Origin: an uncultured Acidimicrobiaceae bacterium
Lineage (GTDB): Bacteria; Actinomycetota; Acidimicrobiia; Acidimicrobiales; CAIXPF01
NCBI GenBank assembly: GCA_963775055.1
Contig: CAVZHK010000001.1
Coordinates: 461,402-525,401, forward strand
Length of the DNA: 64,000 nucleotides
Direction: 5' to 3'
The notes below the pieces were generated by a model. That model had not been told where the DNA came from, made no database searches, and saw nothing but the letters and a program-made list of their open reading frames with translations. This document shows positions 35,740 to 50,581 of this stretch, one piece after another. The position numbers and the translations under genes were made by a program. Within the stretch, counting starts at the first letter, position 1; every line of letters starts with the position of its first letter.

Positions 35740-35803
35740 GGGCGTCACCATCGATACCGCTTGGGCCGAGGCTGGTCCGGAGCCTATGCTAGGGCCTCCA
35801 CAT

Positions 35804-35927: not shown

Positions 35928-36002
35928 GCGCCTCTAGCTCAACGGCAGAGCAACGGACTCTTAATCCGCAGGTTCTCGGTTCGAATCCGAGGGGGCGCAC
36001 CA
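35928..36002 (+). tRNA. tRNA-Lys (anticodon CTT), encoded CCA; integration target
   Basis: It folds as GCGCCTC-TA-GCTC-AACGGCA-GAGC-A-ACGGA-CTCTTAA-TCCGC-AGGTT-CTCGG-TTCGAAT-CCGAG-GGGGCGC-A-CCA. Confidence 0.9.
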
Positions 36003-36022
36003 CAAACATGCAGGTCAGAGTC
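35955..36022 (+). repeat. att repeat copy 1 (3' 48 nt of tRNA-Lys plus 20 nt downstream)
   Basis: The 68 bp ggactcttaatccgcaggttctcggttcgaatccgagggggcgcaccacaaacatgcaggtcagagtc are identical to 50456-50523. Confidence 0.9.
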
Positions 36023-36109
36023 ACTTGATCCGCTCTCGCCGACCGGGGTCTCGGCGGCAATCTCACACGAATCTCACAAGGCTCTCAGATCGTGGCGTAC
36101 TGTGATGCC

Positions 36110-37204
36110 ATGAGAGGCAGCATTCGAGCCAAGAAGCCCGGGAGCTGGGAGCTTTCGTTCGACGCCGGCCGCGACCCCTTGACTGGGCGACGTCGGCAGC
36201 GGTCCTCCATGTTCCATGGCACTAAGCGCGACGCCGAGCGGGAGCTGCGACGGGTCGTGCGAGATGCCGAAGAGGGCCGTCTCGTCGGCGGCAGCGTGCT
36301 CGATGTCAGACCTGCTCGCCGGATGGCTCGATCTGTGCGCCGACAGCCTCTCACCCACCACCCTGCGCGAGTACCGGCGGCTGGTCGACAAACGCATCGT
36401 GCCTGCGATCGGGGCAGTGGCGGTCACCAAACTGACCACCCACGCCCTCGACGACTACTACCTGGCACTTTCCCGGGATGCCGGACTGTCCGCGGCGTCG
36501 GTCCGTCAGATCCATTCGATCATCCGCCGGGCGCCTCCGCCAAGCAGTGCGCTGGGGCTGGATCGAACACAACGTCGCGGTGAGCGCCACCAAACCACGG
36601 ATGGCCCGATCCACCATCAAGCCTCCCTCCATGGGTCGCGTCCACGAGCTGCTCACCGAATCCGACCGCTACCACCCCTCCTTCGGAGTCCTGGTCCGCG
36701 TAGCCATCGCAACCGGCATGCGACGCGGTGAACTCTGCGGCCTCCGGTGGTGCGACGTCGAGCTCTCACGACGACAACTCCACGTCACCCAAGCCGTCGT
36801 CGCCGTGCCCGACGGCACCGCCATCAAAGCACCCAAGTCCGGCGCGACACGGCGCCTCTCAATCGACCACCAGACCGCAACCATCCTCGAAGACCACCTG
36901 GTGGCGATCCAGCGACAGCGCTGGGCCGCCGGAAACGCCACTCTGAACGGCGACGGGTATGTGTTCAGCCACGCTCTCGACGGCTCACGACCGCTCCACC
37001 CCGACAACGTGACCGCAGCGTTCCGACGGCTACCTTCCAACAACGGCACCGTGCGGCTGCACGACCTACGGCACGCCCACGCCACGCAACTGCTCTCAAA
37101 TGGCGTCGACATCAGCGCCGTCCAGCAGCCGCCTCGGCCACGCGAACTCCTCGACCACACTCAACATCTACGCCCACGCCCTCGAGGAAACCGACGAGCG
37201 CTAG
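36110..37204 (+). pseudogene. tyrosine recombinase/integrase A, three 1-nt frame breaks (about 36300, about 36530, about 37127)
   Basis: The arm-binding N-terminus is MRGSIRAKKPGSWELSFDAGRDPLTGRRRQ. A second frame gives LSPTTLREYRRLVDKRIVPAIG. A third frame gives ATGMRRGELCGLRW and LHDLRHAHAT. A final frame gives RLGHANSSTTLNIYAHALEETDER, with the catalytic Tyr and a stop at 37204. Confidence 0.8.
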
Positions 37205-37624
37205 CCTCAGTCATCGGAGCGTTGCTAGGGCCAACCTGAACCGGCGACTGTCGGGTTATGAGCGATGGCGGGCGGTGGCGGACCTTGCTGGCCTGCACGA
37301 ACCACGGTTGTTCACCGTTCGCCGGCCCCCCTTCGCCGTGTGAGCCTACGGGGCGGTAGATGACCGATTGATGTCAGGCGTCGCTGAGGATCGCTCCCGA
37401 GCTTGGGTGATCGTCGTTCCCGGGTGGCTAGCGCCGTCGTTTCCGAGCGGGCCAACCGGGCCACTCCGCCGGCACCCGAGCGCGGCCGACCGGCCTTGCC
37501 GGGTGGTGATATCGAGCGGTCGTGCTGGACGACCGAGTGGGGCGGAGGGGGTGCGAACTCAAGCGCAACTAGCACCGGATCGAGACCACTTGCTAGAGAC
37601 TAGCGGGCTCGATTTCTCGCGTAT

Positions 37625-37953
37625 CTACGCAGTCGGTGGCTGGTAGCTCGGGCGGAGGCTACTGCCCTCATCGACTTCTTCCGCAGTAAACAGGAGTTCC
37701 GCAGTTGATGAAGGCACTGTCCCCGCCGACAACGATGTCGTCAGCACCGCTGCAACGGAGGCTGAAGTTGGCAGTTCGACGATCCCGACAGCCGAGAGAT
37801 TGTCGCTTGACCAGTAGGGACCAGCGACGACCCTGCCTCCGACACTCTCGAACAGGCCCTGGAGGACTTCTCGACGGCTGGAGATGCGCCGGCCGCCACA
37901 AGCGCCCGGACTGCTTCAGCGGTATAGGTTCCTCGTATCAGATAGTGTGCCAT
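37625..37953 (-). pseudogene. GYD domain protein, frame break near 37888
   Basis: The first frame gives MAHYLIRGTYTAEAVRALVAAG. My own translation of the next frame gives ISSRREVLQGLFESVGGRVVAGPYWSSDNLSAVGIVELPTSASVAAVLTTSLSAGTVPSSTAELLFTAEEVDEG, with a stop at 37625. Confidence 0.65.
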
Positions 37954-38141
37954 CGCATCCTCGTCTTCAGGGTTCTCGAAGGGCTTCGTGTCGCCTGCAA
38001 CCTAGCTCCGGACGATCGGGCTCGCATCGTACGGCTCTACCTGAGTCCCGGCCCGGCCGGCGCCTCGCCCCCGGGGCGGTAGTGGTCGTTGCCGGATGGA
38101 CCGACCGGGCCCTCCGCCGCCTGTGTCAACGGGCCATTGAT

Positions 38142-38345
38142 GGGAGGATGTCCCGAGTCTCGTGGAACTTCGGGGTGGCCCGGGTGTGATGTTATGCGGT
38201 CTTGGCGAGTGGTTGGTGGATTCTGGTTTGTAGGTTGAGGGGGGCGGCGAGCTGCGCGAGTTGGCGGTGGCCTTTGACCCGGTTGTATTGCTCTTCGGCG
38301 CACAGGATCCCGGCGGCAGCCCAGCGCAGTCGCATGTCCCCGGGG
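38142..38345 (-). mobile_element. IS256-family remnant (one terminal inverted repeat plus the last ~50 codons of the transposase)
   Basis: The stretch gggaggatgtcccgagtctcgtggaacttcggggtgg...gcgcatgtccccgg aligns by eye with 51356-51555 of the full IS copy. Homology stops at the palindrome ggggactgcccc/ggggcagtccc (38342-38365). Confidence 0.8.
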
Positions 38346-38632
38346 ACTGCCCCGGGGGCAGTCCCGAACCTCTACACCGCCCTCCACCACCTCCACACCA
38401 CCGGACCCTGGCCCCTACCCACCTGAACAGTTACTCGACGGCTGCGTGCTGTACTCCCGTGGGGCGATCTGGTCGGTGACGCCGGCAACGGGTGGCCTGG
38501 GCACGCCGATCGACAATGCTCCGCCTTATCGTGCGAGCCAGGGCCTGGCTACTGTCGTCCTGGATGGGCCAGTGCCCTGGTGGGGTTTGGGCTAGCCTGC
38601 GGACCGTTCGGTCGCATAGGGAGGGGTTCCAG

Positions 38633-39782
38633 GTGGAGACATGGAACGGGTTGAGTGCTGCCGAGGCGATCGCTGTGGAGGCCGACGCCCGTTGGGATGA
38701 GCTGGAGGCAGGCTGTCGGTTTCCTGACGATCTGTATCGGGGGCTGGCTGGGGCAGGGGTGTTCACCCAACTTGTTCCCGCCGAGTCTGGCGGCGCAGGA
38801 CGCAGCCCGTGCGACACTTTTGATCTGGGGATGGAATTGGCGCGGTACAACGGCAGCTTGGGCTGGATCGCCAGCCAGGGCGCGGCGATGATGGCCCTCT
38901 TTTACTCGCTGGCGTCGCCTGGGCTACGCGACGCGGTGCTGGGCGATCCCTTGGTCCGTCTTGCGGGTGTCAACACCGCGGTTGGACGGTTCCGCACGGC
39001 AGGTGATGGTGTCGAGATCAGCGGACGGTGGCCGTTCACCTCCGGCTGCGAGGGCTCGTCGTGGTGCGTGGTGTTGTTGTTGCCGGACGGGTCCAATGAT
39101 CGCGGCGAGCTGCGTATGGCTTGTGTGCGGGCCGACCAATACCGGGTCGATCGCGATTGGGATCCGGATGGCTTGCGCGGCACCGGCAGTCATTCCATTG
39201 TCGTCACCGGGGAGTACTGCCCTTCGGATTACCTCTTCGACATCAACCTTCGATCAACTCTCGAGCATCCGGTGGCGTGCGCAAGTCCCGCGGTGGGCGG
39301 GCCGTGGCCGATCTCGGCGTCCGTTGCTGCCACCCAACTCGGCCTGGCCCGACGAGCCCTCGACGAGGCCACAGTGATCGTGGACAGCAAAGCGCCGGCG
39401 CCAACGTTCACGCCCCTGAGATCGAGCCACGCCGTACAACGCGAACTCAGCCGGCTCGAGGGCCTATGGTGGGCGGCGCAGGCCGGAATGCGAGAAGCAC
39501 TGACTGAACTATGGGAGGCAGCCATTTCCGACGGTGTCTCGCTGCAGCACCGGCGCAAGGTGCCATCTGCAACCACACGGCCAACGCGGCCGCAGGGCGG
39601 ATTGTAGAGGACAGCGTGGCTTCTCGCCGGGACCAGCGCTTTGTCGCATTCTCACCCGCTGGCCCGCTGCTTGCGGGATAGCCGGCCGTTGCTCGGCCAC
39701 ATCTCTGCGAATGAACGGGTCCTTGAGTACGCCGACCAGGTCCGCCAGAGCGGCGCCCAGTTGCCGTTCGCCCTGATCTGAC
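38633..39782 (+). pseudogene. acyl-CoA dehydrogenase-fold (flavin-dependent oxidoreductase/monooxygenase-like) protein, at least 2 frame breaks (about 39555, about 39628)
   Basis: The GTG at 38633 is preceded by gggagggg. The ORF has ISGRWPFTSGCEGSSW and LRGTGSHSIVV. The C-terminus can be recovered only by frame hopping, as AICNHTANAAAGRIVEDSV then GTSALSHSHPLARCLRDSRPLLGHISANE, with a stop at 39782. Confidence 0.6.
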
Positions 39783-39983
39783 CAAGGGCAGGCGCCGATC
39801 GACGTCGTGCGGAAGGCCGCGTCGTCACCGAGCGGGCCGACCGGACCAGTCCTCCGGACTGTTGGGGGGCGGATCGAATCCCTGAGCCTGCTATCGAGCT
39901 GGGCGCAAGTCGCGCCGGTCGAGAGACGGGAGGGCACGGTCTTTATGCCTCGCAGCGGTTGCGGTGCTGGAGTGGGCTTGGCT

Positions 39984-40793
39984 TCAGGCCGTTCCTCTAG
40001 CAACGAGAACAACGTCTGGGAAGGTGTAGCTGCCGCTGCCGTTCCTGTACGGGGCCGCACGCTCTCGAACCCCGTTCTCGATTCGGTCCTGGATCTCTTG
40101 GGGCTGCTCGTGGAGCCCGGTGATGATCCATCCCGAGTTGAGGAGGACGTCGAGGTCCTTGATGGTGACGGGCTTCTCCTTGACCTGGCAGTCGACCTCG
40201 CTATAGCCACAGCCCTGCAGCAACTCGACGTATACGAAGGGCTCGGCCACATCGAGAAGCGCACCACCAGGTACGGTCTCGGGCGGAAGCACAGCGGAAA
40301 CCGCCTCGGCGAACGATCCCCAGGACGGCTGTCGAGACTGGATCGGGTGAACGATGACCAACCGCCCACCCGGCACCAGGACTCTTCGGATCTCACCGAA
40401 TGCTTGCTCGGGCCGAGCCATGTGATGCGCACAGTAGTTGACGACAGCAAGGTCGAACCGGTCGGCGCTGAACGGCAAATCCTCGGCGTTGGCAACCCGG
40501 AAGTCCAGTTTCGGGTGGTGCCGTTGGGCTTCGGCGATCATCTGAGCCGAGAAGTCCACTCCTGTTACCTCGGCTGCGTACTCGCTGAGCTGAGCCGACA
40601 ATACCCCGGGCCCGCACCCGACATCGAGCACTCGTTCCCGCGGATCGATACCTACGGCCTCTCGGATGAGGTCGAGCTGGCCGCTGTTCGCGGTGAGATT
40701 CGCCACATGCTCGACATAGAGGGGGGCGGCTCCTTCCCACGCACCATGCTCATAGAACTCAACCTTGTCCGGTTCGTACGACGCCATCACCAA
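39984..40793 (-). CDS. class I SAM-dependent methyltransferase
   Basis: The 269-aa ORF is intact. It has motif I VLDVGCGPGVL and the post-I and motif II regions (DLAVVNYCAHHM, LVPGGRLVI). Confidence 0.8.
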   Translation of the reverse strand: MVMASYEPDKVEFYEHGAWEGAAPLYVEHVANLTANSGQLDLIREAVGIDPRERVLDVGCGPGVLSAQLSEYAAEVTGVDFSAQMIAEAQRHHPKLDFRVANAEDLPFSADRFDLAVVNYCAHHMARPEQAFGEIRRVLVPGGRLVIVHPIQSRQPSWGSFAEAVSAVLPPETVPGGALLDVAEPFVYVELLQGCGYSEVDCQVKEKPVTIKDLDVLLNSGWIITGLHEQPQEIQDRIENGVRERAAPYRNGSGSYTFPDVVLVARGTA

Positions 40794-41179
40794 CCTCCCT
40801 CACCAAATCCGACTGCGCAGCAATCGGCCCCGCCGGGCAGTACACCACACGTTCGACGGCTCCGCATGAGAACAGGGTCGATGTTTCGTCGCGTTGACCG
40901 GTACTGGATCTCACCGGGGCGGCAGCACTCTCGGCCACCGAGGGTAACGAGCAAGCGGACGTCGAGCTGGCGAGCCATCAGAGTGCGGCGCTCCGGTCGG
41001 CATCGCGTAGGGATCGAGCCCTGGGCGCTCTGCTGGACCGCTCGGATCCTTCGCAGTGCGCCGGCAGGGTCCTTGCCTGACTCGGCCACGCCGGCCGAAG
41101 GTTACGTAGCCGCCCGATAACGACGTCGTGCCGACCGCCCTTGGCCACGGCACTCCGGCACTTAGGGTCCGCCGATGAA

Positions 41180-41690
41180 TTACGTGGTTGTAGTTTGTTT
41201 GCGGCGAGGCTTCAGTGGAGTTCCAGCGATGGTGTAGTTCCATTCGCCGTGGAAGGCGTGTCCGGTGAGCGGGACGGCTTGGAGTTCGGCGTCGGTGACC
41301 TTGACACCTTTGGGGTAGCTGCCGGTGTCGCGTTCGGCTCGGACCTTGAGCCGGTACGGGTGGTGGTGGCGGCGATGAGGTCGACAACGACTTCGTGGCT
41401 GGTGAGGGGACGGCCTCGCCAGTTTATTGTGATGTGGGAGAAGAGGCGGTGCTCGATCCGGTTCCATTTCGACGTTCCGGGAGGGAAGTGACAGACCGTG
41501 ATGATGAGACCGGTCCGAGCGGCGAGCTCGCCGAGCTCGGCGTTTCCAGAGGCGACCGCGGTAGCTGTTGGATCCTCCTGCATCGCCGGTGATCAGCAGC
41601 CGTTTCGCGTTCGGGTACAACACCTGGCCGGCGCTGTGCCACCACCTGGCGATGCTCGACGCCGCGAACGCCGCGGTGTCCCCGTCGCTC
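41180..41690 (-). pseudogene. ISAzo13-family (Rhodopirellula-type DDE) transposase, C-terminal fragment with frame break
   Basis: The fragment has DTAAFAASSIARWW, LLITGDAGGSNSYRGRLWK, PPGTSKWNRIEHRLFSHITINWRGRPLTSHEVVVDLIAATTT and GEWNYTI. These are spread over two frames, and the N-terminal half is absent. Confidence 0.7.
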
Positions 41691-42208
41691 ACATGTTTCT
41701 CGAAGCGCTCGGTCAACAAGCAATCGAATCAGGCATGAAAGTCGCCTGGTTCACGCTCGAAAACCTCGGCGGCTTGGTCCGCCGCCACCGAGCCGATGAC
41801 ACCGTCACCCGAGCCGTGACCCGCATCCTGCACTCCGAACTCGTCGTGATAGATGACATCGGGCTTCTCCCCGTCAGCCCCGACGCCGCCGAAGGCCTCT
41901 ACCGCCTCGTCGACGCCGCCTACGAGAAACGCTCCATCGCCGTGTCATCCAACCTGCACCCCTCAGGATTCGACGGAAATCATGCCCAAAACCTCGCCGG
42001 CGCCACCGTCGACCGACTACTCCACCACGCCCACCTCTGCCTCACCACCGGCGACAGCGTCCGCCTCCAACAAGCAACCACCGGAATTGGAGTCAAGCCC
42101 CTGGCCTAAACACCGCGCAGCCCTGGTGGCCACCACCGCGCAACTCTGGTGGCCACCACCGCGAGGTTCCCATGACCGCCACCGCGCAGAAACCCGTGGC
42201 CATTGACA
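41691..42208 (+). mobile_element. IS21-family fragment: 3' part of the istB helper ATPase plus the repeat-rich IS end
   Basis: The IstB-like sequence is FLEALGQQAIESGMKVAWFTLENL ... VVIDDIGLLPVSPDAAEGLYRLVDAAYEKRSIAVSSN ... ATVDRLLHHAHL, with a stop at 42109. It is followed by ctggtggccaccaccgcg x2 and a related third copy, ending ...cattgaca at 42208. Confidence 0.7.
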
Positions 42209-42488
42209 GTCGGCTCGCGTCCACCTCGAAGAGCGTGTGCTCGAAGCATTCTCTGGTGGTGCCATCGAATCCGGACGTGTCGACGCACACGTCGCAAACG
42301 TCGAGCCAGAACCGGTCATGTCGGGAGTAGCTGAAGTTGCCCAGGTACCCTCCACTGACACCGATCCAGTTGTGCACGAGCCTGCCGATCTCTCGACGGG
42401 TGAGCTTCACCGAGTCCATCGCCGACCCGATACTGCTTCCGCACTCAGCGGATCGATCCAGCACATGACCTCTATCGTGCCAGCCCAT
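42209..42488 (-). pseudogene. hypothetical protein gene truncated at its 3' end by the IS21 fragment
   Basis: Translation from the ATG at 42488 reads MGWHDRGHVLDRSAECGSSIGSAMDSVKLTRREIGRLVHNWIGVSGGYLGNFSYSRHDRFWLDVCDVCVDTSGFDGTTRECFEHTLFEVDASRL. The reading frame then runs into IS21 end sequence. Confidence 0.3.
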
Positions 42489-43449
42489 CGAGGCACTCCG
42501 ACCGACTGACCTCGAGCACGTGTCGGCCGCGCGATCGGCTGCCGTGCCACCACCGCCCGTAGCGTTCGGCACTCACCCGAAGCCTCCGGCCCAGCATCTA
42601 TTGCCCCTGCGGAAATCCCTCAGACACAGCTGGAGATCCTGCGGATCTCCGACCGGGAGATGGCGACAGCGCTGCGGCGCGGCATTGTTCGAGTGGTCGT
42701 GCTTGTCAACGTGACCGCCGCCTGCAACCACGTCGCGCCGCAAGCGCGTCCACGTCGATGGTGGACGATGCGATAGCGAGCCCGGGGCAATCGGACATTC
42801 CGTCGCCGGCCCGATCGGCGCCACCTCCCGGCAGCGTCCCGGCATCTCCTACTCGCCATGGGAGGTGGGATCCGTTGTCACGTCATAGCTCTCGGCAGGG
42901 TCCCTACGTACGGCATGGACAACAACACCGCCAGGCGAACAGTCACAGTAGAGGAGGCCACGGATGCTCGGTTGCTCACGGCCACGGCCATGCCCCAGCC
43001 TCCGCCGGCAGTTGGCACGCTGCCGCGACGAGCGGTGCATCAGCGCCGAGCGTGATTGGGTCAACACCTTCGCCGTGCACCACGAAGCGATCGATTCGGC
43101 CGCAACTTCAGCGCTTCAACCTGGCCGACGGGTCGTTGAGACGCCAACGGGCCGGTCACGACAGGAGCAAATCTGTTACTCCATTCCGAACGAAACGGCC
43201 CGAACACCTCAACGCGATCGTCAACACGATCCTCAACGACACCAGCGAACTGATCTGAACGACGCGGTTTCAGCCTCAACGATGCGCTCTGCTGGCCAAC
43301 GGCGACCTCAACGCGCTCTCGGCGGTCTCGATGGGCCGGCCGTCCAGACGCACCACGTTCATTGACTCCGCCACCCGGGCCCCTGTGTCGCGTCCGGTCC
43401 GTCGCGTGCGCTTATCCCCATCGACCGACTCAAACCTGGAGGAATCCCC

Positions 43450-43653
43450 TTGTCTGCCAAGCTCACCTACACCGTTACCGAGGCCGCCCAGCTGCTCGGC
43501 ATCTCCCGCACAAGCGCCTACGACTGCGTGCGGCGAGGCGAGATCCCCGCCCTTGTCCTCGGCCGGCGCATCGTGATCACCCGCAACGCCCTTGAACACC
43601 TGCTCGGCCCACTCCCCATGGCCGCCACGCACGTCGACCGCGACCACTCGTGA
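43450..43653 (+). CDS. xis: excisionase-family helix-turn-helix DNA-binding protein
   Basis: The TTG start is preceded by ggagga. The 67-aa product has the MerR-type Xis signature YTVTEAAQLLGISRTSAYDCVRRGEIPALVLGRRIVITRNALEHLL. Confidence 0.7.
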   Translation: MSAKLTYTVTEAAQLLGISRTSAYDCVRRGEIPALVLGRRIVITRNALEHLLGPLPMAATHVDRDHS

Positions 43654-43819
43654 CGAATCCCAACACACCCCCAGCTCGCTCCCGTGCGACCGCAACGACA
43701 ACGCGGCCAACACGTCTGAAATGAGGCTCACAGACTTGCCGGTTCCCCAAGGGGAACCGGCTGAAGGCACAACACCACCACCAAGCCACCGCCACGCCGC
43801 AGCTACCTCACCCAACGCC

Positions 43820-44362
43820 ATGCGCACCATCGAAGCCTCCAACACGAGCGCCGACCCCATCCGCTACCGGCAGCGCTGGCTCGCCGACCTTTTCCTCGCC
43901 CGCGACGAAGCCGCCGAACAATGGGCGCAGGCTGGCGCAGTCCAAGAAGCGTCGCTCCAGGCAGCCATCGACGCCATGCAACGCAGGGAAACCCGCCGCA
44001 CGTGTCGCCCGTCAACACGAACAAGCGATACAACGCTTGCGTACCGCCGAAGATGCCGAACAACGACGGCTGCGACGCAACGCCCGCCAACGCGCCAGCT
44101 ACGCCCACAGACGCAACCGAGGACACGCCGATCCCGAGGGCCGTACCGGGCTCCGCACAGATTGCGATCGTCGTCGACCCCGGTGCCTACGCCACCGTCA
44201 AAGCCGAGGCCTACAGAGCGGCGCACATCAATCCCCGTCGTTCTCGGCGAGATCCTCACCACCACCAAGCTCCCTGACCGTGCCAGCTCCAGAAGTCCGG
44301 TCCCCGATGGCAGCGCACAGGACAAGGACGACACGCCAACCAACACGCCCGGATCGCCATAG
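43820..44362 (+). pseudogene. hypothetical element protein (coiled-coil, then a ribbon-helix-helix-like segment), readable only across at least 2 frame changes
   Basis: Segments lie in three frames. They are DPIRYRQRWLADLFLARDEAAEQW, then LRTAEDAEQRRLRRNARQRASYAHRR, then IAIVVDPGAYATVKAEAYRAA followed by IPVVLGEILTTT. Confidence 0.3.
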
Positions 44363-44669
44363 ATAGCGACATCTGGCATCAACTTCACCTCGACGCCATC
44401 AACTCCAACTACACCACTGGCCACTGGGTCGGCCTCCATATCGAACACTGGGCACAACCCAATGAGTCCCGCCCTTTGGGGCCAGCAAGCCGCTGCTGAC
44501 CACAGCCTCGGCGAGGGCCCGTGTGTGTGTGTGTCGGCTTCGCATCTCACGGAAAATCTCACGCACTCGTTGCGACACGCTAACAATGGGCACGACGGGA
44601 CGAACTCGCTGCGGACAGAACGCCTGCTCAGGGCGTCGCGAGGCGTCTCAACGGACGGCTGTCAAGGCC

Positions 44670-44713
44670 CTCTTAATCCGCAGGTTCTCGGTTCGAATCC
44701 GAGGGGGCGCACC
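44670..44713 (+). repeat. att repeat copy 2 (44-bp core of the tRNA-Lys 3' end)
   Basis: The sequence ctcttaatccgcaggttctcggttcgaatccgagggggcgcacc is identical to 35958-36001. The next 20 nt (gcaaacgggcaggtcagggc) are a diverged version of the tail seen in copies 1 and 3. The upstream 30 nt retain a weak D-arm-like ctcaacgg. Confidence 0.9.
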
Positions 44714-44828
44714 GCAAACGGGCAGGTCAGGGCGGTAGTGGACGCCCGGAGCGGCCGATCACCCGGCAGAAAGTTTGGCGCCAGCGGCGCGTTAGACCGA
44801 CTGATAGACACCCCGATAGACTGCGCCG

Positions 44829-46280
44829 GTGGGGCAGGCCGCGGACCCGTTTGAGTCCAAGATCGACCGCTCGGGGTGCCACCACCTCTGGACGGGTAGC
44901 AAGTCCGCCCGCGGTGCCGGACAGGTACGAATTGGCGGCAAGCTGCACACGGCGGCCCGGATCGCTTGGGAACGGGTCCACGGGGCCGCGCCGGAAGGCG
45001 CCAAGGTCCTGTCCTGCCCCACCGAACCGGCCTGCGTTCGCGTCGAGCATCTCCACCTGAAACAGGCGAAAGCGAAAGACATCGGGCGCCGCTCAACCCG
45101 CGGCAGCGGCTCAATGAGCCAACTCGGACCGGACACCTGGAAACTCACCGTCGACGCTGGCCGCGACGGTCACGGTCGAAGGCAGCGGGTCTACCGCACC
45201 GCGAGAGGCACCCGAGCAGACGCAAGCCGAGCACTCGCCGCCCTGGTCACAGAAATAGGGGAAAGCCCTGCCGTGCCAACGTCCGCTTCGAGAAACTTGA
45301 CCGTCAACGAACTGGCTGAGTGGTACCTCGCGTTCGCCCGAGACGAACGCGGGCTCGAGCATTCCACCTTGGTCGGCTATCGCGAGGTCTACGACAACTG
45401 GCTGCGACATCACATCGGGCACATGAAAGCGGCCGGGCTCGACGGCGCCGCTCTCGACAACGCGTTCGGCCGCATGCGCCGAGGCGGGATGTCCGACAGC
45501 CGCATGAACAACGCCCGGGCGTTGATCTCCGGGGCCTACAAGTGGGGCCAACGCCACCACAAAGTCCCCGTCAACCCCGTCGATCGCTTCGAGTTGCCCT
45601 CCAGCTCCAGCGCCCCCAGGCCCACCGCCACCCCTGAGCTGGACGAGCTGCTCCGGCTACTCAACGGGGCCGAGGACCACGATCCCGAACTCGCCCCGGT
45701 GCTCAAGCTCGGCGCCACCACCGGCATGCGCCGAGGCGAACTCTCAGGTTTGCGCCGAGACCGCCTGCGCCTCGACCGAGGCGAACTGGTGGTGGACACC
45801 GCCATCAACGACGCCGGCGGGATCGTCGTCGAGAAACCCACCAAGACCAAACACAATCGCACCGTCAGCCTCGACCCCGTCACGATCGGCCTGTTGCGCC
45901 AGCACCTCGCGGGCATGGACCAGCGCGCCGCCACCTGCGGCGCCGCTGTGCCCGAGAACGGTTTCGTGTTCAGCCTCGACCCCACCTGCCGGACGCCGAT
46001 GCGACCCGAACTGATGACCAGACGCATGCGACAGCTCCGCGAGGCCCTGGGCATCCGCCTCGGCGAGTTCGACGCCACCATCCTCGCGTTGCGCAAGTGG
46101 ACCAGCACCGAGCTGATGGACGCCGGCTTCAACCCCTCAACGGTCAGCGGCCGCCAAGGCCACAGCGTGCAAGTCATGCTGGCCCACTACTCCACCCACC
46201 GCCGCTCCGCCGACCAAGCCGCCGCCCAACACCTCGGCCACAAAGTCCACGGCCCCCAGGAAGACACTCACAGCACATGA
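44829..46280 (+). CDS. tyrosine recombinase/integrase B with an in-frame N-terminal HNH-like Cys/His extension
   Basis: The 483-aa ORF is uninterrupted. Residues 1-95 read FESKIDRSGCHHLWTGSKSARGAGQVRIGGKLHTAARIAWERVHG...CPTEPACVRVEHLHL. The canonical integrase part starts at MSQLGPDTWKLTVDAGRDGHGRRQR (ATG at 45114). The catalytic region has ATTGMRRGEL, LRKWTSTE, GHSVQVMLAHYS. Confidence 0.8.
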   Translation: MGQAADPFESKIDRSGCHHLWTGSKSARGAGQVRIGGKLHTAARIAWERVHGAAPEGAKVLSCPTEPACVRVEHLHLKQAKAKDIGRRSTRGSGSMSQLGPDTWKLTVDAGRDGHGRRQRVYRTARGTRADASRALAALVTEIGESPAVPTSASRNLTVNELAEWYLAFARDERGLEHSTLVGYREVYDNWLRHHIGHMKAAGLDGAALDNAFGRMRRGGMSDSRMNNARALISGAYKWGQRHHKVPVNPVDRFELPSSSSAPRPTATPELDELLRLLNGAEDHDPELAPVLKLGATTGMRRGELSGLRRDRLRLDRGELVVDTAINDAGGIVVEKPTKTKHNRTVSLDPVTIGLLRQHLAGMDQRAATCGAAVPENGFVFSLDPTCRTPMRPELMTRRMRQLREALGIRLGEFDATILALRKWTSTELMDAGFNPSTVSGRQGHSVQVMLAHYSTHRRSADQAAAQHLGHKVHGPQEDTHST

Positions 46281-46538
46281 TCCATGGTGCGGCGCCAGCC
46301 CCATCCAAGCCGCACCCACTCCGGGCACCGATTCCATCCGGGCAGGGGAGTTGCCGCGGCCACGAGACCATCACGCACGGTTGCACAGACCATCACCCGT
46401 CGCTACGGACGACAACGCTCCCTGCTGCGGTGACCACCCGTCACCCCGAACAAGTGGCGCCGACCCCATAGCCGGGCTCGAGAGATGCGCTTACAAGCCG
46501 GCGTGGCTCGGCCAGGATCAGCGAGCCAGCACCAGTGA

Positions 46539-46591
46539 CCAATCCCGTGATTGGATGGGTCATTGCCATGTGATTCATAGTGGTATATGGT
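46539..46591 (+). promoter_or_regulatory. putative operator palindrome plus promoter for a leaderless RES-Xre operon
   Basis: The palindrome CCAATCccgtGATTGG lies at 46539-46554. TTGCCA lies at 46563-46568, then 17 nt, then TATGGT at 46586-46591. This ends 6 nt before the ATG at 46598. Confidence 0.35.
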
Positions 46592-46597
46592 TGTGCT

Positions 46598-46987
46598 ATG
46601 GTGACGGTGAGCAGGCCCGAGCTGCGGGCACATGATCATGCGATGCGAGTCCCTTTCGCAACAGCAGCGAAAGAGCTGCGAGATCTGCTGACACCTCGGC
46701 TTGTCGCCTACCTCAGCGGGGTTCGCGAGACACGAGCCGTTCACCAGTGGGCCGACGGGACCCGAGAAGCGAAATCCGGCGAGGTCGAGGACCGCATTCG
46801 CTTCGCGTTGCAGGTCGCGCTGCTGCTCAGCGAGCACGACGCACCACGTGTCGTCCAAGCCTGGTTCCAAGGACTGAACCCACACCTCGGGGACCGCTCA
46901 CCCGCAAGACTCCTTCGCGAAGGTGATCTCGACGAATTCGGTCCCATGGTGCTCGCCGCGGCGAGAGCCTTCCTCGTCGGCGGGTGA
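46598..46987 (+). CDS. Xre/ParS/MbcA-type antitoxin (DUF2384-like)
   Basis: The ORF has LVAYLSGVRETRAVHQWADG and WFQGLNPHLGDRSPARLLREGDLDEFGPMVLAAARAF. It overlaps the RES gene by 4 nt. An alternative GTG start lies at 46580. Confidence 0.7.
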   Translation: MVTVSRPELRAHDHAMRVPFATAAKELRDLLTPRLVAYLSGVRETRAVHQWADGTREAKSGEVEDRIRFALQVALLLSEHDAPRVVQAWFQGLNPHLGDRSPARLLREGDLDEFGPMVLAAARAFLVGG

Positions 46988-47655
46988 GACAGGCCGCCGC
47001 ACCGACGGTGCTCTACCGGCTCGGGCGACGCCCCGACCCGTGGGCATGGCCGGACTGGGCCTACGCCGAGGCCGACGGCACGTTCGGCAACCGCTACGAC
47101 GACCCCCAGGGGATCTACCGGGTTCTCTACGCCTCAACGCAACGAACTGGAACCTTCGTGGAGTGTCTCGCCTACTACCGTGCCGACATCCACGTCATCG
47201 CGGAACTCGCAGCCATCATGGGCGACGAGGGCGACAACGAACCTCCTGCCCCCGGCGTCGTGCCTAACGAATGGGTAGACCAACGCTGCGTCGGGCGGGC
47301 CGTACTTTCCGGGGACTACGCCGATGTCGGCCACCACCAATCACTCGCCGAGCTACGCGCCGCCCTCGCCGCCCAAGCAGTCCACCACGGCCTGCACGAT
47401 CTCGACGCCGCCACCATCCGACTGACCGCCCCCCGAGCCCTGACCCAAGCCATATCCCGCTACGTGTTCAGCCAAACCATCAACGGCCACCGACGTTGGA
47501 ACGGGCTCACCTACCTCTCAAAGCACGGCGACAACCTCCGCAACTGGGCCATCTTCGAGCCCGCAGATCCCGACATCATCGACATCACCAATTTCACAAA
47601 CCAAGACCCCGGCCTCAACGCCGCTCTCACACTCCACAACCTACAACTCGGGTAA
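46984..47655 (+). CDS. RES domain toxin
   Basis: The 223-aa ORF has GNRYDDPQGIYRVLYASTQRTGTFVECLAY (R...Y...S/E layout) and NGLTYLSKHGDNLRNWAIFE. Confidence 0.7.
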   Translation: MRQAAAPTVLYRLGRRPDPWAWPDWAYAEADGTFGNRYDDPQGIYRVLYASTQRTGTFVECLAYYRADIHVIAELAAIMGDEGDNEPPAPGVVPNEWVDQRCVGRAVLSGDYADVGHHQSLAELRAALAAQAVHHGLHDLDAATIRLTAPRALTQAISRYVFSQTINGHRRWNGLTYLSKHGDNLRNWAIFEPADPDIIDITNFTNQDPGLNAALTLHNLQLG

Positions 47656-47824
47656 CGACCCAATCCTCCATTCACGCGTGACTATTCCGACCGGTCCTCG
47701 CCGGTGGGGCGTGCATCTGCTTCCCCCGCGGGTGTCAGTCCTCAGGGACGCAAGCTTCTTCCTGTGGCGCTGGCACGATCATGGTCGTGACGATGCTTAT
47801 CCAGGAGGATCCAAAACAGGCCAT

Positions 47825-49604
47825 ATGACATATGCTGAAATAGAGCAAGCGATCGCCGGGCTGTCTACTCTTCACGAGATCAACAACGTCTGGCCAGCAG
47901 ATGCCGATGATCGTCCCACCGACGTGCTGTACGCGCTGGATTCTATAGCGTTAGGACTGTCATTCTCCAAATTCCTCCCGATCAGCGTACGACCGGCGTC
48001 CGGTGGTCCGCCTTGGGTCCACGTAGACGGGAACCCCTCAGAAGTCGCCCTGAGACTGTCCTCCGCCCTGGACCACCTCTCGACGCCGATTCTGCGCAGC
48101 CGGATCGGGCTTTTCCTCTGGTGGAACCTGCCCGACCGGAGCGTCGGGATACTCAATCAGACGCTCGAAGCGTCAGTAGTCGTGGCGCGCACGTCTCCGG
48201 ACCCGACGGATAGGTTGTCAACGATCTGGGCGGCATCTGAGCTGGCCCGATCGACGAGGCGCCATGGCGATCTCGACGCCTTGCGTGCCTGCACCGCCGA
48301 CGCCGCCTTTATGCTGGCCTTCGCCGACCATGATGCGGCCGAACTCCTAGGGCTGCGGATGGACGGCGGCCTCATGTTCCTCTATGGCATCGCTGCCGCG
48401 TGGGATCCGCTTCCAATCCGCCGCGAGTTGAACGCGGTTTGCGAGATCGCGGCAGCGCCGAATCCATCCGTTCACCTTGCCCTCCCCTCACCTACCGTCC
48501 ATTGATTGGATTCACAGGATTCGATATCTACTCGCCAGCGGATCCGACGACGAGCGTGTACGGGTGGTGGAGGAAGTCGTTGCCGATCGCCAACTTGCGG
48601 CCAGGCGGTCTCCTTTCCCTCGCGGAGCGGCACCGCCGCTGATGGAGGCCGCAGAGTTGTCTCGCTCCATCGAAGACGCCGCCTTCGAAGTTCAGCAGTT
48701 GCCGAACAAGTCCCCTTTGCGGTCCCGAATGCAACAGCTCACAGAAGATCTCGTAGTCGAACTCCAAGACCTCAGCTGGCGGCACAACCACCCGCGGCGA
48801 TCCCTCGTGTCCTCAGAAGATCTGAGCGAGGATGCGCAAGCGGCCCGCGACGAATGGCGCTGCGAGTTGGCGGACGTTCCGCCGTCTGTCGAGCATCGCT
48901 TGGTTTGGCTGGGAAGCCGGGGTTCGATCCTCGGCGCTCCTGCGGGACTTGAGGTCGCAGCGCAAGAGCACCGCCGTAGCATCGGTCAGTTCCGCTCGAC
49001 TGTCCGGGCGTACGGTTTCATGGCACCGGACACCCTCCGAAGGCAAGACTTGGACGCACTTGCGTTCGCCGAGATGGCTCGACATCGATTTGTGGCCTGG
49101 GGAGAGGTCGCCGCCGAGGCGTTGCAGACCGCCAATTTGGATGTCGAATTGACACTTCTCTTTCAAGGTGCGTTGGTCGCCGAAGCTGTCGCCGAGCGAT
49201 TTGCCCATGCACTGAGGTTGTTCGTCGCCGGCGACGCCGACGCTGCCGCCCACATCGTGATACCAAGGATCGAAGCGACTATTCGACAGGTCGCGATCGC
49301 CCGGAAGATACCGGCGTTGGAAGTCGCCTACCGCTCATTGGGAAACATCTCGTTTCTCGACCGGCTGCTTCGTCGGATCAGCGACGGCGCTCCCCTGAGC
49401 GACCGTCCAGTGTGGAATCAGTTCCGACTCCTGTTGACCGACGATCAATGCGTAGGCATTCGAAACGTCTCAAGTCACGGGCTCCGGCGAGATATTGGGA
49501 TGATAGAATCAACGTCGATCGAGGAGGCGGCCCTTCTGCTTCATGTCGCAGCCTTTCTCTCAACCTTGGACAAGGCCGGTAATTGCAAAGAAATGTCGCA
49601 TTAG
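47825..49604 (+). pseudogene. large hypothetical protein (about 590 aa if ORFs 47678..48505 and 48477..49604 are joined), tentatively DUF4209-like at the C-terminus
   Basis: The two long ORFs overlap by 29 nt in adjacent frames. The DNA is visibly AT-richer than its surroundings. The C-terminal motif LLLTDDQCVGIRNVSSHGL is reminiscent of DUF4209, from memory only. The ATG at 47825 is the first Met after the GC drop. Confidence 0.5.
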
Positions 49605-50332
49605 TCGACAATAATGATTGCAACGAAACCGCTCACCATCGACCCACCTGGTCAAGATCTTTAGATCAATGATGTCAGCATCCTGCGTCCGGTGAAGTGG
49701 AGCGATCTGCGCCGATGTCCTCCGACCATCCGCGGGCGCCTGATCGGCATGCCCTTTGAGAGTGACCATCGGTGCTGGGGACCTGGGCCGGGCAGGCGAC
49801 GACGCAACCCGCCCGTTGATCTCTACCGAGCGCACCTCGTCGGGCGGGCACTGGTCATCTTCGGCCACGCCATCACCAAGATGGAGTTCGGCACCGAACT
49901 TTGTCGGCTGGGGCGCAGTCCGCCGGACCAGACTCGCCGCAGTGCGCGGCACCGCCAAGATCTCCTGGCCCGACCCCGAAACTGCTGGTGCATCGCGAGG
50001 CGGAAGGCCGCGTGCTGCACGGGACGGCACGCGCTCGCTCAAGCGGCCCACACGGCAGAGGCCTGGATCGCCGGGACGACCGTCCGGCGAACATGCGGTT
50101 GGTCTCCAACGACGCCGTGTCCCAACGAGGCACCGAATTCGAACTCGTCACCGACCTTCCTCCACCGAGCGCATAGATCGAATGGATCCACCGGCAACGG
50201 CCACCGAGCGCGAGCCCCAGGGAAAGACCGAACCGGTCGCTATATCCGCTGGCCGTGTCGCCCTCGCGTGCCGTACTGCGGACAGCGCAAGCACGTTCCC
50301 CAACCGTCGACCTGCGGATTACGGCCGGGGTC

Positions 50333-50581
50333 TTGGCGCCTAACTTGGCGCCAAACTCCACGGACTGGGGCCCACCAAACCGCGCTAGGCGGACGACCGT
50401 CTGTACAGAAGCCCACGTGAGAGCACTAGATCCCACCCACTGGACAGTCCTTTCGGGACTCTTAATCCGCAGGTTCTCGGTTCGAATCCGAGGGGGCGCA
50501 CCACAAACATGCAGGTCAGAGTCGGTGCGACCCTCTGCTGTAAGCCATCGTGGTTGCTTTGGCGCCTAACTTGGCGCCAAA
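50333..50581. repeat. 23-bp direct repeat ttggcgcctaacttggcgccaaa (50333-50355 and 50559-50581) bracketing att copy 3
   Basis: The two copies are identical when read from the sequence. Each contains the perfect palindrome TTGGCGCCAA. Confidence 0.85.
50456..50523 (+). repeat. att repeat copy 3 (68 bp identical to copy 1)
   Basis: See copy 1. There is no 5' half of a tRNA upstream. Confidence 0.9.

What the first reader, a model, noticed from the sequence alone, without database searches (positions are those of the whole stretch)
35928..50523. Two integrase-bearing elements stacked in tandem at tRNA-Lys(CTT), delimited by three direct copies of the tRNA 3' end
- **Repeats.** The intact tRNA-Lys lies at 35928-36002. 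Its last 48 nt plus the next 20 nt (35955-36022) recur with no mismatch at 50456-50523. A 44-bp core recurs at 44670-44713, followed by a diverged version of the 20-nt tail.
- **Integrases.** Repeat copies 1 and 2 are each followed within about 100 nt by a same-strand tyrosine integrase gene (36110 and 44829). This is the classical picture of serial site-specific integration, each event regenerating the tRNA.
- **Unusual details.** The att identity extends 20 nt beyond the tRNA. The two outer repeats are identical while the middle one has drifted. An excisionase-like gene (43450) lies at the distal end of element A, next to integrase B, rather than next to integrase A.
- **Inference.** Copies 1 and 3 could support excision of the whole 14.5-kb composite as one unit, driven by the intact integrase B.
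Basis: partly seen in the sequence, partly recalled or inferred. Interest (0 to 1): 0.8.

Follow-up and report, generated by a model that had tools for sequence, protein, structure and literature searches.

The report
Two stacked islands at tRNA-Lys
Two unrelated integrase-bearing genomic islands, one decayed and one apparently intact, sit one after the other at a tRNA-Lys(CTT) gene of an Acidimicrobiales bacterium; this is real, but it is an ordinary case of serial site-specific integration at a tRNA hotspot.

Summary
tRNA-Lys(CTT) lies at 35928-36002. Its last 48 nt plus 20 nt recur exactly at 50456-50523. A 44-nt exact core with a diverged tail lies at 44670-44734.

- **Element A (36003-44669)** is decayed. 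Its integrase carries three +1 frameshifts and a premature stop. It also holds IS fragments and a second pseudogene. One excisionase-family gene remains intact and is unusually conserved.
- **Element B (44714-50455)** has an intact 483-aa integrase that is only about 30% identical to A's.
- **Arm sites.** Each element has its own tandem arm-type motifs on both sides of its att sites.
- **Relatives.** In Acidimicrobiales MAGs the same tRNA-Lys locus is empty, holds one A-type element, holds one B-type element, or holds other arrays.
- **The 20-nt tail.** It is the 5' arm of the tRNA's terminator hairpin, which explains why the outer copies are identical.
B-type arm-like repeats follow copy 3, and a truncated third B-type integrase lies at 61372-62341. 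The array may therefore be longer.

Tandem accretion at tRNA genes, including decayed-plus-intact pairs at tRNA-Lys, is well documented. Verdict: a new member of a known kind, of low to moderate interest.

The parts
35928..36002 (+). Intact tRNA-Lys(CTT). Its 3' 48 nt plus a 20-nt trailer (35955-36022) form repeat copy 1, which is attL of element A.
   Evidence: ARAGORN; repeat family D2; exact core match.
36060..36077 (+). A-type arm-site candidates on the P' side: ATCTCAC twice, 11 nt apart.
   Evidence: The same tandem pair occurs in L001 after its att copy.
36110..37205 (+). Integrase A, a tyrosine recombinase pseudogene with three +1 frameshifts (36301, 36534, 37122) and a premature stop.
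   Evidence: Pfam Phage_int_SAM_3 and Phage_integrase on separate frames. Alignment to the intact L001 homologue, 1059 of 1122 aligned bases identical.
38142..38343 (.). 202-nt fragment of an IS256-family element, 91% identical to the end of the full copy at 51356-51557.
38492..39607 (+). Cargo ORF of element A with partial acyl-CoA dehydrogenase N- and C-terminal domain matches.
   Evidence: Pfam, E = 1e-6 and 2e-5.
39984..40793 (-). Cargo of element A: SAM-dependent methyltransferase.
   Evidence: Pfam Methyltransf_11, E = 3e-27; positive codon-usage score.
41180..42109 (.). IS debris: an ISAZ013-type DDE transposase fragment (41180-41719, - strand) and an IstB fragment (41498-42109, + strand).
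   Evidence: Pfam, E = 7.7e-27 and 3.6e-23, both matching only part of the profile.
43450..43653 (+). Excisionase-family HTH_17 gene (67 aa). It is intact and much better conserved than its surroundings.
   Evidence: TIGR01764, E = 1e-10, above cut-off; HTH_17, E = 1e-13. One synonymous difference from L018; no indels in 43210-43659, where identity per 150-nt bin is 95-99%, while neighbouring DNA is 90-95% identical with many indels.
43654..44460 (+). Pseudogene: homologue of the 265-aa ORF that follows HTH_17 in L018. It is broken here by at least 8 frame-disrupting indels.
44544..44562 (+). A-type arm-site candidates on the P side: ATCTCAC twice, 12 nt apart, 108-126 nt before copy 2.
44667..44734 (+). 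Repeat copy 2, the hybrid attR(A)/attL(B). The exact core is 44670-44713 and the tail has diverged.
44773..44822 (+). B-type arm-site candidates on the P' side: one TTGGCGCC-type site and three [GT]TAGAC sites, 11-12 nt apart.
   Evidence: Triple ATAGAC also occurs upstream of B-type integrases in L016 and L019.
44829..46280 (+). Integrase B, 483 aa, intact. Domain order: HNH_3-like N-terminal domain, arm-binding domain, core-binding domain, catalytic domain.
   Evidence: Pfam; PHROG integrase, E = 5e-46, and HNH, E = 1e-12. Catalytic R, K, R, H and Y are invariant in 30 homologues. AF2 model pLDDT 83. Foldseek matches Tn1549 Int and full-length lambda Int. No indels relative to the 93%-identical homologue.
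46580..50420 (+). Element B cargo: five same-strand ORFs (46580-46987, 46984-47655, 47678-48505, 48477-49604, 49692-50420) without firm family assignment.
   Evidence: No Pfam, PHROG or NCBIfam match. Weak hits only: Xre_MbcA_ParS_C E = 0.004; PDC-S39 E = 3e-5; DUF4209 E = 0.008. The first two ORFs are conserved in L018.
50333..50365 (+). B-type arm-site candidates on the P side: TTGGCGCCTAACTTGGCGCCAAAC.
50456..50523 (+). Repeat copy 3, the displaced tRNA 3' fragment and attR of element B. It is identical to copy 1.
50559..50591 (+). Second copy of the TTGGCGCCTAACTTGGCGCCAAA motif, lying to the right of copy 3. It may be a relic of an older B-type element.
   Evidence: The motif is conserved at the same place in L018.
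51314..52721 (-). IS256-family insertion sequence (approximate ends). Mutator-type transposase at 51406-52560.
   Evidence: Pfam Transposase_mut, E = 8e-27; candidate terminal inverted repeats.
61372..62341 (+). Truncated third integrase, B-type. It is 88% identical at the protein level to IntB residues 170-479, and the N-terminal 169 residues are missing.
   Evidence: tblastn and blastn; Pfam Phage_integrase, E = 6e-11; sequence at the breakpoint.

Best explanation
This is an integration hotspot at the 3' half of tRNA-Lys(CTT) in an Acidimicrobiales chromosome. It has been used successively by two different lambda-type (arm-binding) tyrosine-integrase elements.

**How each integration works.** Each element carries in its attP a copy of the tRNA from the anticodon loop to the 3' end, plus the first 20 nt of the trailer. 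That trailer piece is the 5' arm of the tRNA's terminator. Each integration therefore rebuilds a complete tRNA and leaves a displaced 3' fragment at the far end of the element.

**Element A (8.7 kb).** It has since decayed. Its integrase is frameshifted, it contains IS debris, and the gene after its xis-like gene is shattered. It resembles a cis-mobilizable relic that keeps both att sites and an intact, conserved excisionase-family gene.

**Element B (5.7 kb).** It keeps an intact integrase with family-typical catalytic residues and arm-type repeats on both sides. It is the only part likely to still excise on its own, by recombination of copy 2 with copy 3.

**Shown:** the repeats, the gene states, the arm repeats, and the presence/absence pattern in relatives.

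**Inferred:**
- Crossover in the anticodon loop, because the identity begins there.
- The order of arrival of A and B, which cannot be determined.
- Present-day activity of IntB.
- Any use of A's excisionase by B.
For: - **Repeats.** Three co-oriented copies with an exact 44-nt core, 0 expected by chance.
- **Distinct integrases.** The two are about 30% identical. IntA is broken by three +1 insertions relative to the intact L001 homologue. IntB has no indel relative to its 93%-identical homologue, and R301/302, K339, R422, H445 and Y454 are invariant across 30 homologues. Its fold matches Tn1549 Int and full-length lambda Int.
- **Element-specific arm repeats.** ATCTCAC pairs lie at 36060/36071 and 44544/44556. 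TTGGCGCC and TAGAC sets lie at 44773-44822 and 50333-50356.
- **Independent use of the same site by B-type elements.** B-type integrases sit about 110-125 nt after tRNA-Lys(CTT) in L016, L019, L020, L021 and L022. L019 is a clean single 10.2-kb element with 76-nt perfect repeats and a TrwC relaxase.
- **Independent use by A-type elements.** An A-type integrase follows tRNA-Lys(CTT) in L024 and tRNA-Lys(TTT) in L023.
- **Empty sites.** L003 and L004 have the same synteny with no integrase downstream.
- **Other array arrangements.** L001 has a B-type right end, an att copy and then an intact IntA. L018 has an A-type right end, an att copy and a 3.9-kb B'.
- **Tail.** It is the 5' arm of the terminator hairpin.
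- **Literature.** Islander reports 125 tandem arrays among 3919 tDNA islands (PMC4383910). The accretion model and a decayed-ICE-plus-IME tandem at a streptococcal tRNA-Lys are described in PMC5704250.
Against: - No direct evidence of excision: no circular junction or empty-site reads were available.
- No close relative with an empty site was found. The empty sites are in genomes whose flanking HemN protein is only about 52% identical.
- IntB lacks the first His of the HxxR motif (Leu instead). This is family-wide, but its effect on activity is unknown.
- Element B has no recognisable excisionase, replication or transfer gene.
- Sequence to the right of copy 3 carries B-type arm-like repeats, an IS, and a truncated B-type integrase 11 kb further on. 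'Two elements' may therefore undercount the array.
- The exact crossover position was not determined.
Confidence: 0.85

Rival explanations
1. The array is longer than two elements. DNA to the right of copy 3 is also island-derived: a third, B-type element whose integrase was truncated and separated from its att site by IS-mediated rearrangement. On this view copy 3 is an internal junction, not the true right border.
For: - The tandem TTGGCGCCTAACTTGGCGCCAAA motif of B's P arm recurs 36 nt to the right of copy 3, in both the window and L018.
- An IS256-family element lies at about 51314-52721, and a fragment of the same IS lies inside A.
- A truncated integrase 88% identical to IntB lies at 61372-62341.
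- No gene in 36003-64000 matches the DNA downstream of tRNA-Lys in relatives.
- In a related MAG the pieces are compatible with a B-A-B array.
Against: - There is no fourth tRNA fragment in the window.
- Genes between 54 and 61 kb (two histidine kinase/response regulator pairs) have host-like codon usage.
- The copy 3 trailer retains a degenerate version of the native terminator, as expected for the original chromosomal flank.
- The region after copy 3 shows no integrase-like coding remnant.
Confidence: 0.35
2. A and B behave, or were acquired, as one composite unit. The decayed A is cis-mobilised with B by recombination between copies 1 and 3, and A's conserved excisionase-family gene serves IntB.
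For: - Copies 1 and 3 are identical over 68 nt.
- The A-end/copy 2/IntB block is 92% identical between the window and L018, while the copy 3 flank is only about 77% identical.
- HTH_17 is the only intact, strongly conserved gene of A: one synonymous change, against 5-10% divergence around it.
- B and B' lack an HTH_17 gene, whereas B-type elements in L020 and L022 carry one.
- Composite excision has been demonstrated for a decayed ICE plus IME at a streptococcal tRNA-Lys, with integrases less than 30% identical (PMC5704250).
Against: - Copy 1 is flanked by A-type arm motifs, not B-type ones.
- The identity of copies 1 and 3 is explained by the conserved tRNA trailer alone.
- The right part of B differs between the window and L018 (5.7 kb against 3.9 kb), so the 'unit' is mosaic.
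- The shared junction can equally be vertical inheritance.
- There are no junction data.
Confidence: 0.2
3. Both elements are fixed fossils. IntB is intact by chance or is retained for another role, and nothing at this locus moves any more.
For: - B has no identifiable excisionase, relaxase or replication gene.
- No member of the IntB family above 30% identity appears in IMG/VR viral contigs.
- IntB lacks the first His of HxxR.
- A is clearly dead.
Against: - IntB shows no indel and 93% amino-acid identity to its homologue, inside DNA where neighbouring non-coding or pseudogene sequence accumulates indels.
- All other catalytic residues are invariant.
- Arm repeats are preserved on both sides.
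- The family sits at tRNA-Lys(CTT) with very different cargo in five other genomes, which implies recent mobility of the family.
Confidence: 0.25
4. The repeats or junctions are assembly artefacts: a chimeric MAG contig joined at a repeated tRNA sequence.
For: The source appears to be a metagenome-derived 783-kb contig. The closest relatives are all MAGs.
Against: - The A-end/copy 2/IntB junction and the B-end/copy 3/flank junction both recur in an independent assembly (L018).
- The att/IntA junction recurs in L001.
- A 68-nt repeat is shorter than typical assembly k-mers or reads.
Confidence: 0.03

Closest known systems
Tandem arrays of tDNA-integrated genomic islands as catalogued by Islander (Hudson, Lau and Williams 2015, PMC4383910)
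   Same: An intact tRNA gene is followed by islands, each with its own integrase gene and its own co-oriented 3' tRNA fragment. The identity block starts at the anticodon loop, Islander's 'anticodon-centred' attP class.
   Different: The host lineage (Acidimicrobiales, known almost only from MAGs) and both integrase lineages are uncharacterised. One integrase is a pseudogene. Further island-like relics lie beyond the last fragment.
Site-specific accretion of a decayed element (CIME) with an incoming ICE or IME, for example ICESt1/CIME in Streptococcus thermophilus and the decayed ICE plus IME_Sag2603_tRNAlys in S. agalactiae (reviewed in PMC5704250)
   Same: A decayed element that keeps attL and attR lies next to an element with a functional-looking integrase. 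The integrases are about 30% or less identical. The target is the 3' end of a tRNA-Lys(CTT) gene. The middle site is a chimeric att site.
   Different: No relaxase, coupling protein or other transfer gene is found in A or B, so neither can be called an ICE or IME. Excision of the parts or of the composite has not been tested here.
Actinomycete integrative and conjugative elements (AICEs such as pSAM2 and SLP1; PMC3218068)
   Same: The host is an actinobacterium. A tyrosine integrase targets the 3' end of a tRNA gene. The att identity block runs from the anticodon loop past the 3' end. An excisionase-family HTH gene is present.
   Different: No FtsK-like TraB, Rep, Nudix or Kor genes were detected. 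The integrase is read away from the tRNA rather than lying in a xis-int operon next to attP.
Lambda/Tn916/Tn1549-type heterobivalent tyrosine integrases (arm-binding YRs; PMC8138268)
   Same: The predicted fold of IntB matches Tn1549 Int and full-length lambda Int. It has a three-strand-plus-helix arm-binding domain, and tandem arm-type repeats lie on both sides of the core.
   Different: IntB has an additional ~80-residue HNH_3-like Cys/His domain in front of the arm-binding domain. It has Leu in place of the first His of the RKHRH pentad, and both features are family-wide.

Membership tests
tDNA-integrated genomic island, tandem array (Islander criteria) | Intact tRNA gene plus a displaced fragment of the same tRNA in the same orientation, marking the island ends | tested here: met
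   tRNA-Lys at 35928-36002. 3' fragments at 44670-44713 and 50456-50503, on the same strand.
tDNA-integrated genomic island, tandem array (Islander criteria) | [quoted passage not shown] | tested here: met
   IntA (pseudogene) at 36110-37205 with copy 2. IntB at 44829-46280 with copy 3.
tDNA-integrated genomic island, tandem array (Islander criteria) | Presence/absence polymorphism of the island at the same tDNA in related genomes | tested here: met
   Empty sites in L003 and L004. A single B-type element in L019. A single A-type element in L024. Other arrays in L001 and L018. All relatives are fairly distant; no near-isogenic empty site was found.
Arm-binding (heterobivalent) tyrosine integrase | Catalytic RKHRH pentad plus the tyrosine nucleophile | tested here: inconclusive
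   In IntB, R301/302, K339, R422, H445 and Y454 are invariant in 30 homologues. The first His is Leu in the whole family. IntA and its L001 homologue have the canonical HDLRH.
Arm-binding (heterobivalent) tyrosine integrase | N-terminal arm-binding domain (three strands plus a helix), with arm-type repeats flanking the core on both sides | tested here: met
   AF2 model: strands 94-126 and helix 129-144. Foldseek aligns 374-395 columns with full-length lambda Int. Tandem repeats flank the att sites. Binding itself was not tested.
Excisionase / recombination directionality factor (TIGR01764, HTH_17) | Match to the excisionase-family DNA-binding domain above the curated cut-off | tested here: met
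   TIGR01764: 41.6 bits against a cut-off of 28.8. HTH_17: E = 1e-13.
Excisionase / recombination directionality factor (TIGR01764, HTH_17) | Stimulates excision by a cognate integrase | not testable with these tools
   Needs an in vivo or in vitro recombination assay. HTH_17 proteins can also be plain regulators.
CIME (cis-mobilizable element) for element A | Has lost functional integration and transfer genes but retains attL and attR | tested here: met
   IntA has three frameshifts. Both flanking cores are exact and A-type arm repeats are present at both ends.
CIME (cis-mobilizable element) for element A | Is excised or transferred together with a neighbouring functional element | not testable with these tools
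   No read data and no experiment.
ICE / IME / AICE | Relaxase, coupling protein or T4SS, or FtsK-like TraB plus Rep | tested here: not met
   No such domain was found in any ORF of A or B with Pfam, PHROGs, NCBIfam or PADLOC. A relative of B in L019 does carry TrwC.
Prophage or phage satellite | Structural, packaging or replication genes of phage type | tested here: not met
   The only PHROG hits are integrase, HNH-like and excisionase. No IntB relative above 30% identity occurs in IMG/VR.

The most novel reading that the evidence does not exclude
**Claim 1: the IntB family is an undescribed subgroup.** It comprises hundreds of sequences, so far only in Acidimicrobiales and other Actinomycetota MAGs. 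It may be an undescribed subgroup of arm-binding tyrosine integrases dedicated to tRNA-Lys(CTT). Its members have an extra N-terminal HNH_3-like zinc-type domain that may read a second class of arm site; two distinct repeat types, TTGGCGCC and TAGAC, flank its att sites. The active site lacks the first histidine of the pentad.

**Claim 2: B depends on a gene kept alive inside A.** At this locus B would depend on the orphan excisionase gene retained in the dead neighbour A, so the decayed element is kept as part of a two-part mobile unit.
Probability: 0.2. Interest if true: 0.5.

Novelty: new member of a known kind. Interest (0 to 1): 0.27.

Why it matters
- It documents, for a poorly studied and mostly uncultured actinobacterial order, that the tRNA-Arg/His/Lys(CTT) locus is a shared landing pad for at least two integrase lineages.
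- It gives precise att cores, candidate arm sites and an intact integrase. These could be used to map islands in Acidimicrobiales MAGs or be developed as an integration tool.
- It does not change the understanding of how such islands form. The architecture, the decay-then-accretion history and even the target tRNA have well-studied counterparts.

Tried and rejected
- **Six-frame Pfam scan of whole frames.** Replaced by ORF-wise scans.
- **Exact-protein look-ups of IntB and of the window's IntA ORF (P0143).** Neither is in the context index, although both are in the protein collection on a 783,133-bp contig. I could therefore neither name the source assembly nor read beyond 64 kb.
- **Genome-collection scan with the tRNA-end-plus-tail pattern.** It gave one hit only (L001). 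No close relative with an empty site was obtained this way.
- **Metagenome scan with the flanking HemN-like protein.** It returned only distant relatives, 58% identity or less over the full length.
- **A truncated third integrase start codon right after copy 3.** Rejected. The short ORF there is a conserved flank in L018 with a different sequence, and tblastn finds no IntB N-terminus there.
- **A degenerate fourth att core after the second TTGGCGCC motif.** Rejected. Local alignment finds only the 33-nt motif.
- **The right end of A (HTH_17 and the following gene) as really the end of a lost B-type element.** Judged unlikely. It carries the A-type ATCTCAC pair, and the L018 counterpart's cargo matches that of the A-type element in L024.
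- **Gene conversion to explain the identity of copies 1 and 3.** Not needed once the tail was seen to be a conserved terminator arm.
- **The 20-nt tail as a terminator in the window itself.** Folding is not better than shuffled sequence (z = -0.5 and +0.2). Only the 5' arm survives.
- **Family searches on B cargo.** PADLOC, PHROGs and NCBIfam gave only weak hits.

Full report
**1. Observation**

ARAGORN finds four tRNA genes in the window. Three form a cluster: tRNA-Arg(TCT) at 35664-35740 (-), tRNA-His(GTG) at 35805-35882 (+) and tRNA-Lys(CTT) at 35928-36002 (+).

The direct-repeat search returns a three-copy family:

| Copy | Coordinates | Identity to copy 1 |
|---|---|---|
| 1 | 35955-36022 | reference |
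| 2 | 44667-44734 | 88% |
| 3 | 50456-50523 | 100% |

The 44-nt core CTCTTAATCC...GCGCACC occurs exactly three times, all on the + strand, with none in 100 shuffles. A sensitive blastn-short search finds no fourth copy in the 64 kb.

**2. Anatomy of element A (36003-44669)**

- **Integrase.** The gene starts at 36110 but is split over three reading frames. Alignment to an intact homologue in an Acidimicrobiales MAG (L001, 374 aa, 94% nt identity) pins the damage to three single-base insertions at 36301, 36534 and 37122. A premature stop lies at 37205.
- **Other content.** There is an acyl-CoA-dehydrogenase-like ORF, a SAM methyltransferase on the opposite strand, and three kinds of IS debris: a 202-nt IS256-family end, an ISAZ013 transposase fragment and an IstB fragment.
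- **Right end.** A 67-aa HTH_17 gene at 43450-43653 reaches the curated threshold of the excisionase family TIGR01764. The gene that follows it in a relative (265 aa in L018) is broken here by at least eight frame-shifting indels.
- **Conservation of the HTH_17 gene.** It differs from its L018 counterpart by a single synonymous base. The stretch 43210-43659 has no indel, and its 150-nt bins are 95-99% identical. The surrounding DNA is 90-95% identical and full of indels.
- **Summary.** A is a decayed element in which one small gene is still under constraint.

**3. Anatomy of element B (44714-50455)**

- **Integrase sequence.** IntB (44829-46280, 483 aa) is intact. It has no indel relative to a 93%-identical homologue. 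R301/302, K339, R422, H445 and Y454 are invariant in an alignment of 30 homologues down to 47% identity.
- **Missing histidine.** The first His of the HxxR motif is Leu in the whole family, so this is a family trait and not a lesion.
- **Integrase fold.** An AlphaFold model (pLDDT 83) matches Tn1549 Int and full-length lambda Int. It shows a classical arm-binding domain at residues 94-144.
- **Extra N-terminal domain.** An ~80-residue domain precedes the arm-binding domain. It matches phage HNH-endonuclease families (E = 1e-12) and, in some homologues, Pfam HNH_3.
- **Cargo.** The five downstream ORFs have no firm assignment. There are only weak hints of an Xre/MbcA-type antitoxin and of the defence candidate PDC-S39.
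- **Classification.** No relaxase, replication or phage gene is present, so B cannot be called an ICE, IME, AICE or prophage.
- **Relation to IntA.** IntA and IntB are only about 30% identical.

**4. Arm-type repeats**

Each element has its own short tandem repeats on both sides of its att sites.

- **Element A.** ATCTCAC occurs twice at 36060/36071, after copy 1. It occurs twice again at 44544/44556, before copy 2.
- **Element B.** A TTGGCGCC site and three TAGAC sites lie at 44773-44822, after copy 2. TTGGCGCCTAACTTGGCGCCAAAC lies at 50333-50356, before copy 3.
- **Relatives.** Equivalent repeats sit upstream of A-type integrases in L001, L023 and L024, and of B-type integrases in L016 and L019.

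This is what two independent lambda-type systems should look like. It argues against A+B being a single element.

**5. Comparative evidence**

The lineage is Acidimicrobiales. The only species-representative genome with the tRNA-end-plus-tail pattern is an Acidimicrobiales MAG, and the closest integrase homologues are annotated as such.

| Locus or loci | What follows tRNA-Lys |
|---|---|
| L016, L019, L020, L021, L022 | A B-type integrase about 110-125 nt after tRNA-Lys(CTT), with different cargo in each (TrwC relaxase in L019, RHS toxin in L022) |
| L019 | A clean single 10.2-kb B-type element, bounded by a 76-nt perfect repeat |
| L024 | An A-type integrase after the same tRNA-Arg/His/Lys(CTT) cluster |
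| L023 | An A-type integrase after a tRNA-Lys(TTT) |
| L003, L004 | The same tRNA synteny with no integrase for 5.6-8.4 kb (L010 shares the synteny, but its contig ends 64 nt past the tRNA) |
| L018 (related MAG) | A-right-end / copy 2 / IntB at 92% identity, but with a shorter B' of 3.9 kb |
| L001 (same MAG as L018) | A B-type right end abutting an intact IntA |

The site is therefore polymorphic and the two element types move independently.

**6. The three 'unusual details'**

(a) *Identity extends 20 nt past the tRNA.*
- Aligning all att copies shows that the tail ACAAACATGCAGGTCAGAG is 19/20 identical to the sequence after tRNA-Lys in L022. There it forms the 5' arm of a strong terminator hairpin (z = -5.6).
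- In L019 and L024, hairpins with other sequences follow the tRNA (z = -5.7 and -4.3). In L019 the hairpin lies entirely inside the direct repeat.
- The elements therefore carry the tRNA 3' half plus part or all of its terminator.

(b) *Outer copies identical, middle copy drifted.*
- If the crossover is in the anticodon loop, where identity begins (CTCTTAA), each copy's 3' part has a different origin. This crossover position is inferred from Williams-type site classes and was not tested.
- The 3' part of copy 1 then comes from A's attP, that of copy 2 from B's attP, and that of copy 3 from the pre-existing site.
- Copies 1 and 3 carry the lineage's conserved trailer, and B's attP carries a variant. 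No special mechanism is needed.

(c) *Excisionase at the far end of A.* In the excised circle this gene lies just upstream of attP and intA. Split int/xis placement is a known arrangement; this rests on my own knowledge of islands such as the Yersinia HPI and the KplE1 prophage, and was not checked here.

**7.

- The tandem TTGGCGCC motif of B's P arm recurs 36 nt to the right of copy 3, both here and in L018.
- An IS256-family element follows at about 51.3-52.7 kb.
- A truncated integrase 88% identical to IntB (residues 170-479) lies at 61372-62341, directly after a response-regulator gene.
- Nothing in 36-64 kb matches the DNA downstream of tRNA-Lys in relatives.

The array may therefore have had a third, B-type member that was later rearranged. 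I give this about 0.35, for two reasons. There is no fourth tRNA fragment in the window. The two kinase/regulator pairs in between have host-like codon usage.

**8. Mechanism**

- **Best supported (0.85).** Serial site-specific integration (accretion) of two unrelated arm-binding-integrase elements at tRNA-Lys(CTT), followed by decay of A.
- **Order of arrival.** It cannot be deduced, because both orders give the same chimeric copies.
- **Element B on its own.** It is probably still excisable by recombination of copy 2 with copy 3.
- **Open questions.** Whether B uses A's conserved excisionase-family gene, and whether A+B can leave together, remain open (about 0.2).
  - The streptococcal tRNA-Lys tandem shows this can happen with integrases less than 30% identical (PMC5704250).
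  - Here, however, copy 1 is flanked by A-type arm sites and not B-type ones.

**9. Novelty and score**

- Tandem islands at tRNA genes are catalogued by the hundred: 125 arrays in Islander (PMC4383910).
- The decay-then-accretion scenario is textbook for ICE/IME biology (PMC5704250).
- New here are the host order and the integrase lineages. The most interesting side observation is the IntB domain architecture. I did not find it mentioned in a broad tyrosine-recombinase classification (PMC8138268) or in a full-text search.
- Overall: a new member of a known kind, interest about 0.27.

Noticed in passing
window 61372-62341 (+): Truncated tyrosine integrase, 88% identical at the protein level (87.5% nt) to IntB residues 170-479. 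It lacks the N-terminal 169 residues and starts right after a response-regulator gene. No tRNA fragment lies nearby.
   Followed up: partly
window 44829-45080 (IntB residues 1-85) and homologues P0001-P0120: The IntB family has an extra N-terminal HNH_3-like Cys/His domain in front of the usual arm-binding domain. It also has Leu instead of the first His of HxxR, and both features are conserved across the family. I did not find this described in the papers searched.
   Followed up: partly
window 43210-43659: The excisionase-family HTH_17 gene and its upstream region are 95-99% identical per 150-nt bin (98-99% over the gene itself), and indel-free, relative to L018. The surrounding pseudogenised DNA of element A is 90-95% identical with many indels. 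This suggests the gene is still in use.
   Followed up: partly
window 50333-50365 and 50559-50591; L018 13890-13925: A 33-nt motif containing tandem TTGGCGCC (part of a perfect palindrome, TTGGCGCCAA) lies on both sides of copy 3. It is conserved in the related MAG.
   Followed up: partly
window 38142-38343 and 51314-52721: A 202-nt fragment of an IS256-family element lies inside element A. It is 91% identical to the end of a full copy just downstream of copy 3, so the same IS family has hit the hotspot at least twice.
   Followed up: partly
window 55002-57692 and 58595-61264: Two paralogous HisKA_3 histidine kinase / LuxR-type response regulator pairs lie in tandem. The regulator genes are 66% identical at nt level. 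They sit between copy 3 and the truncated integrase.
   Followed up: no
L001 134-1561: In a related MAG, a B-type right end abuts an att copy followed by an intact A-type integrase. This is the reverse order of the window and shows that arrays are assembled in different orders.
   Followed up: yes
window 48477-49604 (+): This ORF in element B has weak matches to the PADLOC candidate defence family PDC-S39 (E = 3e-5) and to DUF4209 (E = 0.008). It is possibly a defence cargo gene.
   Followed up: no
window 12629-12715 (-): ARAGORN calls a tRNA-Pro(CGG) of 87 nt with the anticodon at position 29. That is unusually long for a tRNA-Pro.
   Followed up: no
L019 9801-20134: A clean single B-type element of about 10.2 kb with a TrwC relaxase, in a 2.9-Mb Acidimicrobiales contig. 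Its 76-nt perfect repeats include the whole tRNA-Lys terminator hairpin. It is a good reference for the family.
   Followed up: partly
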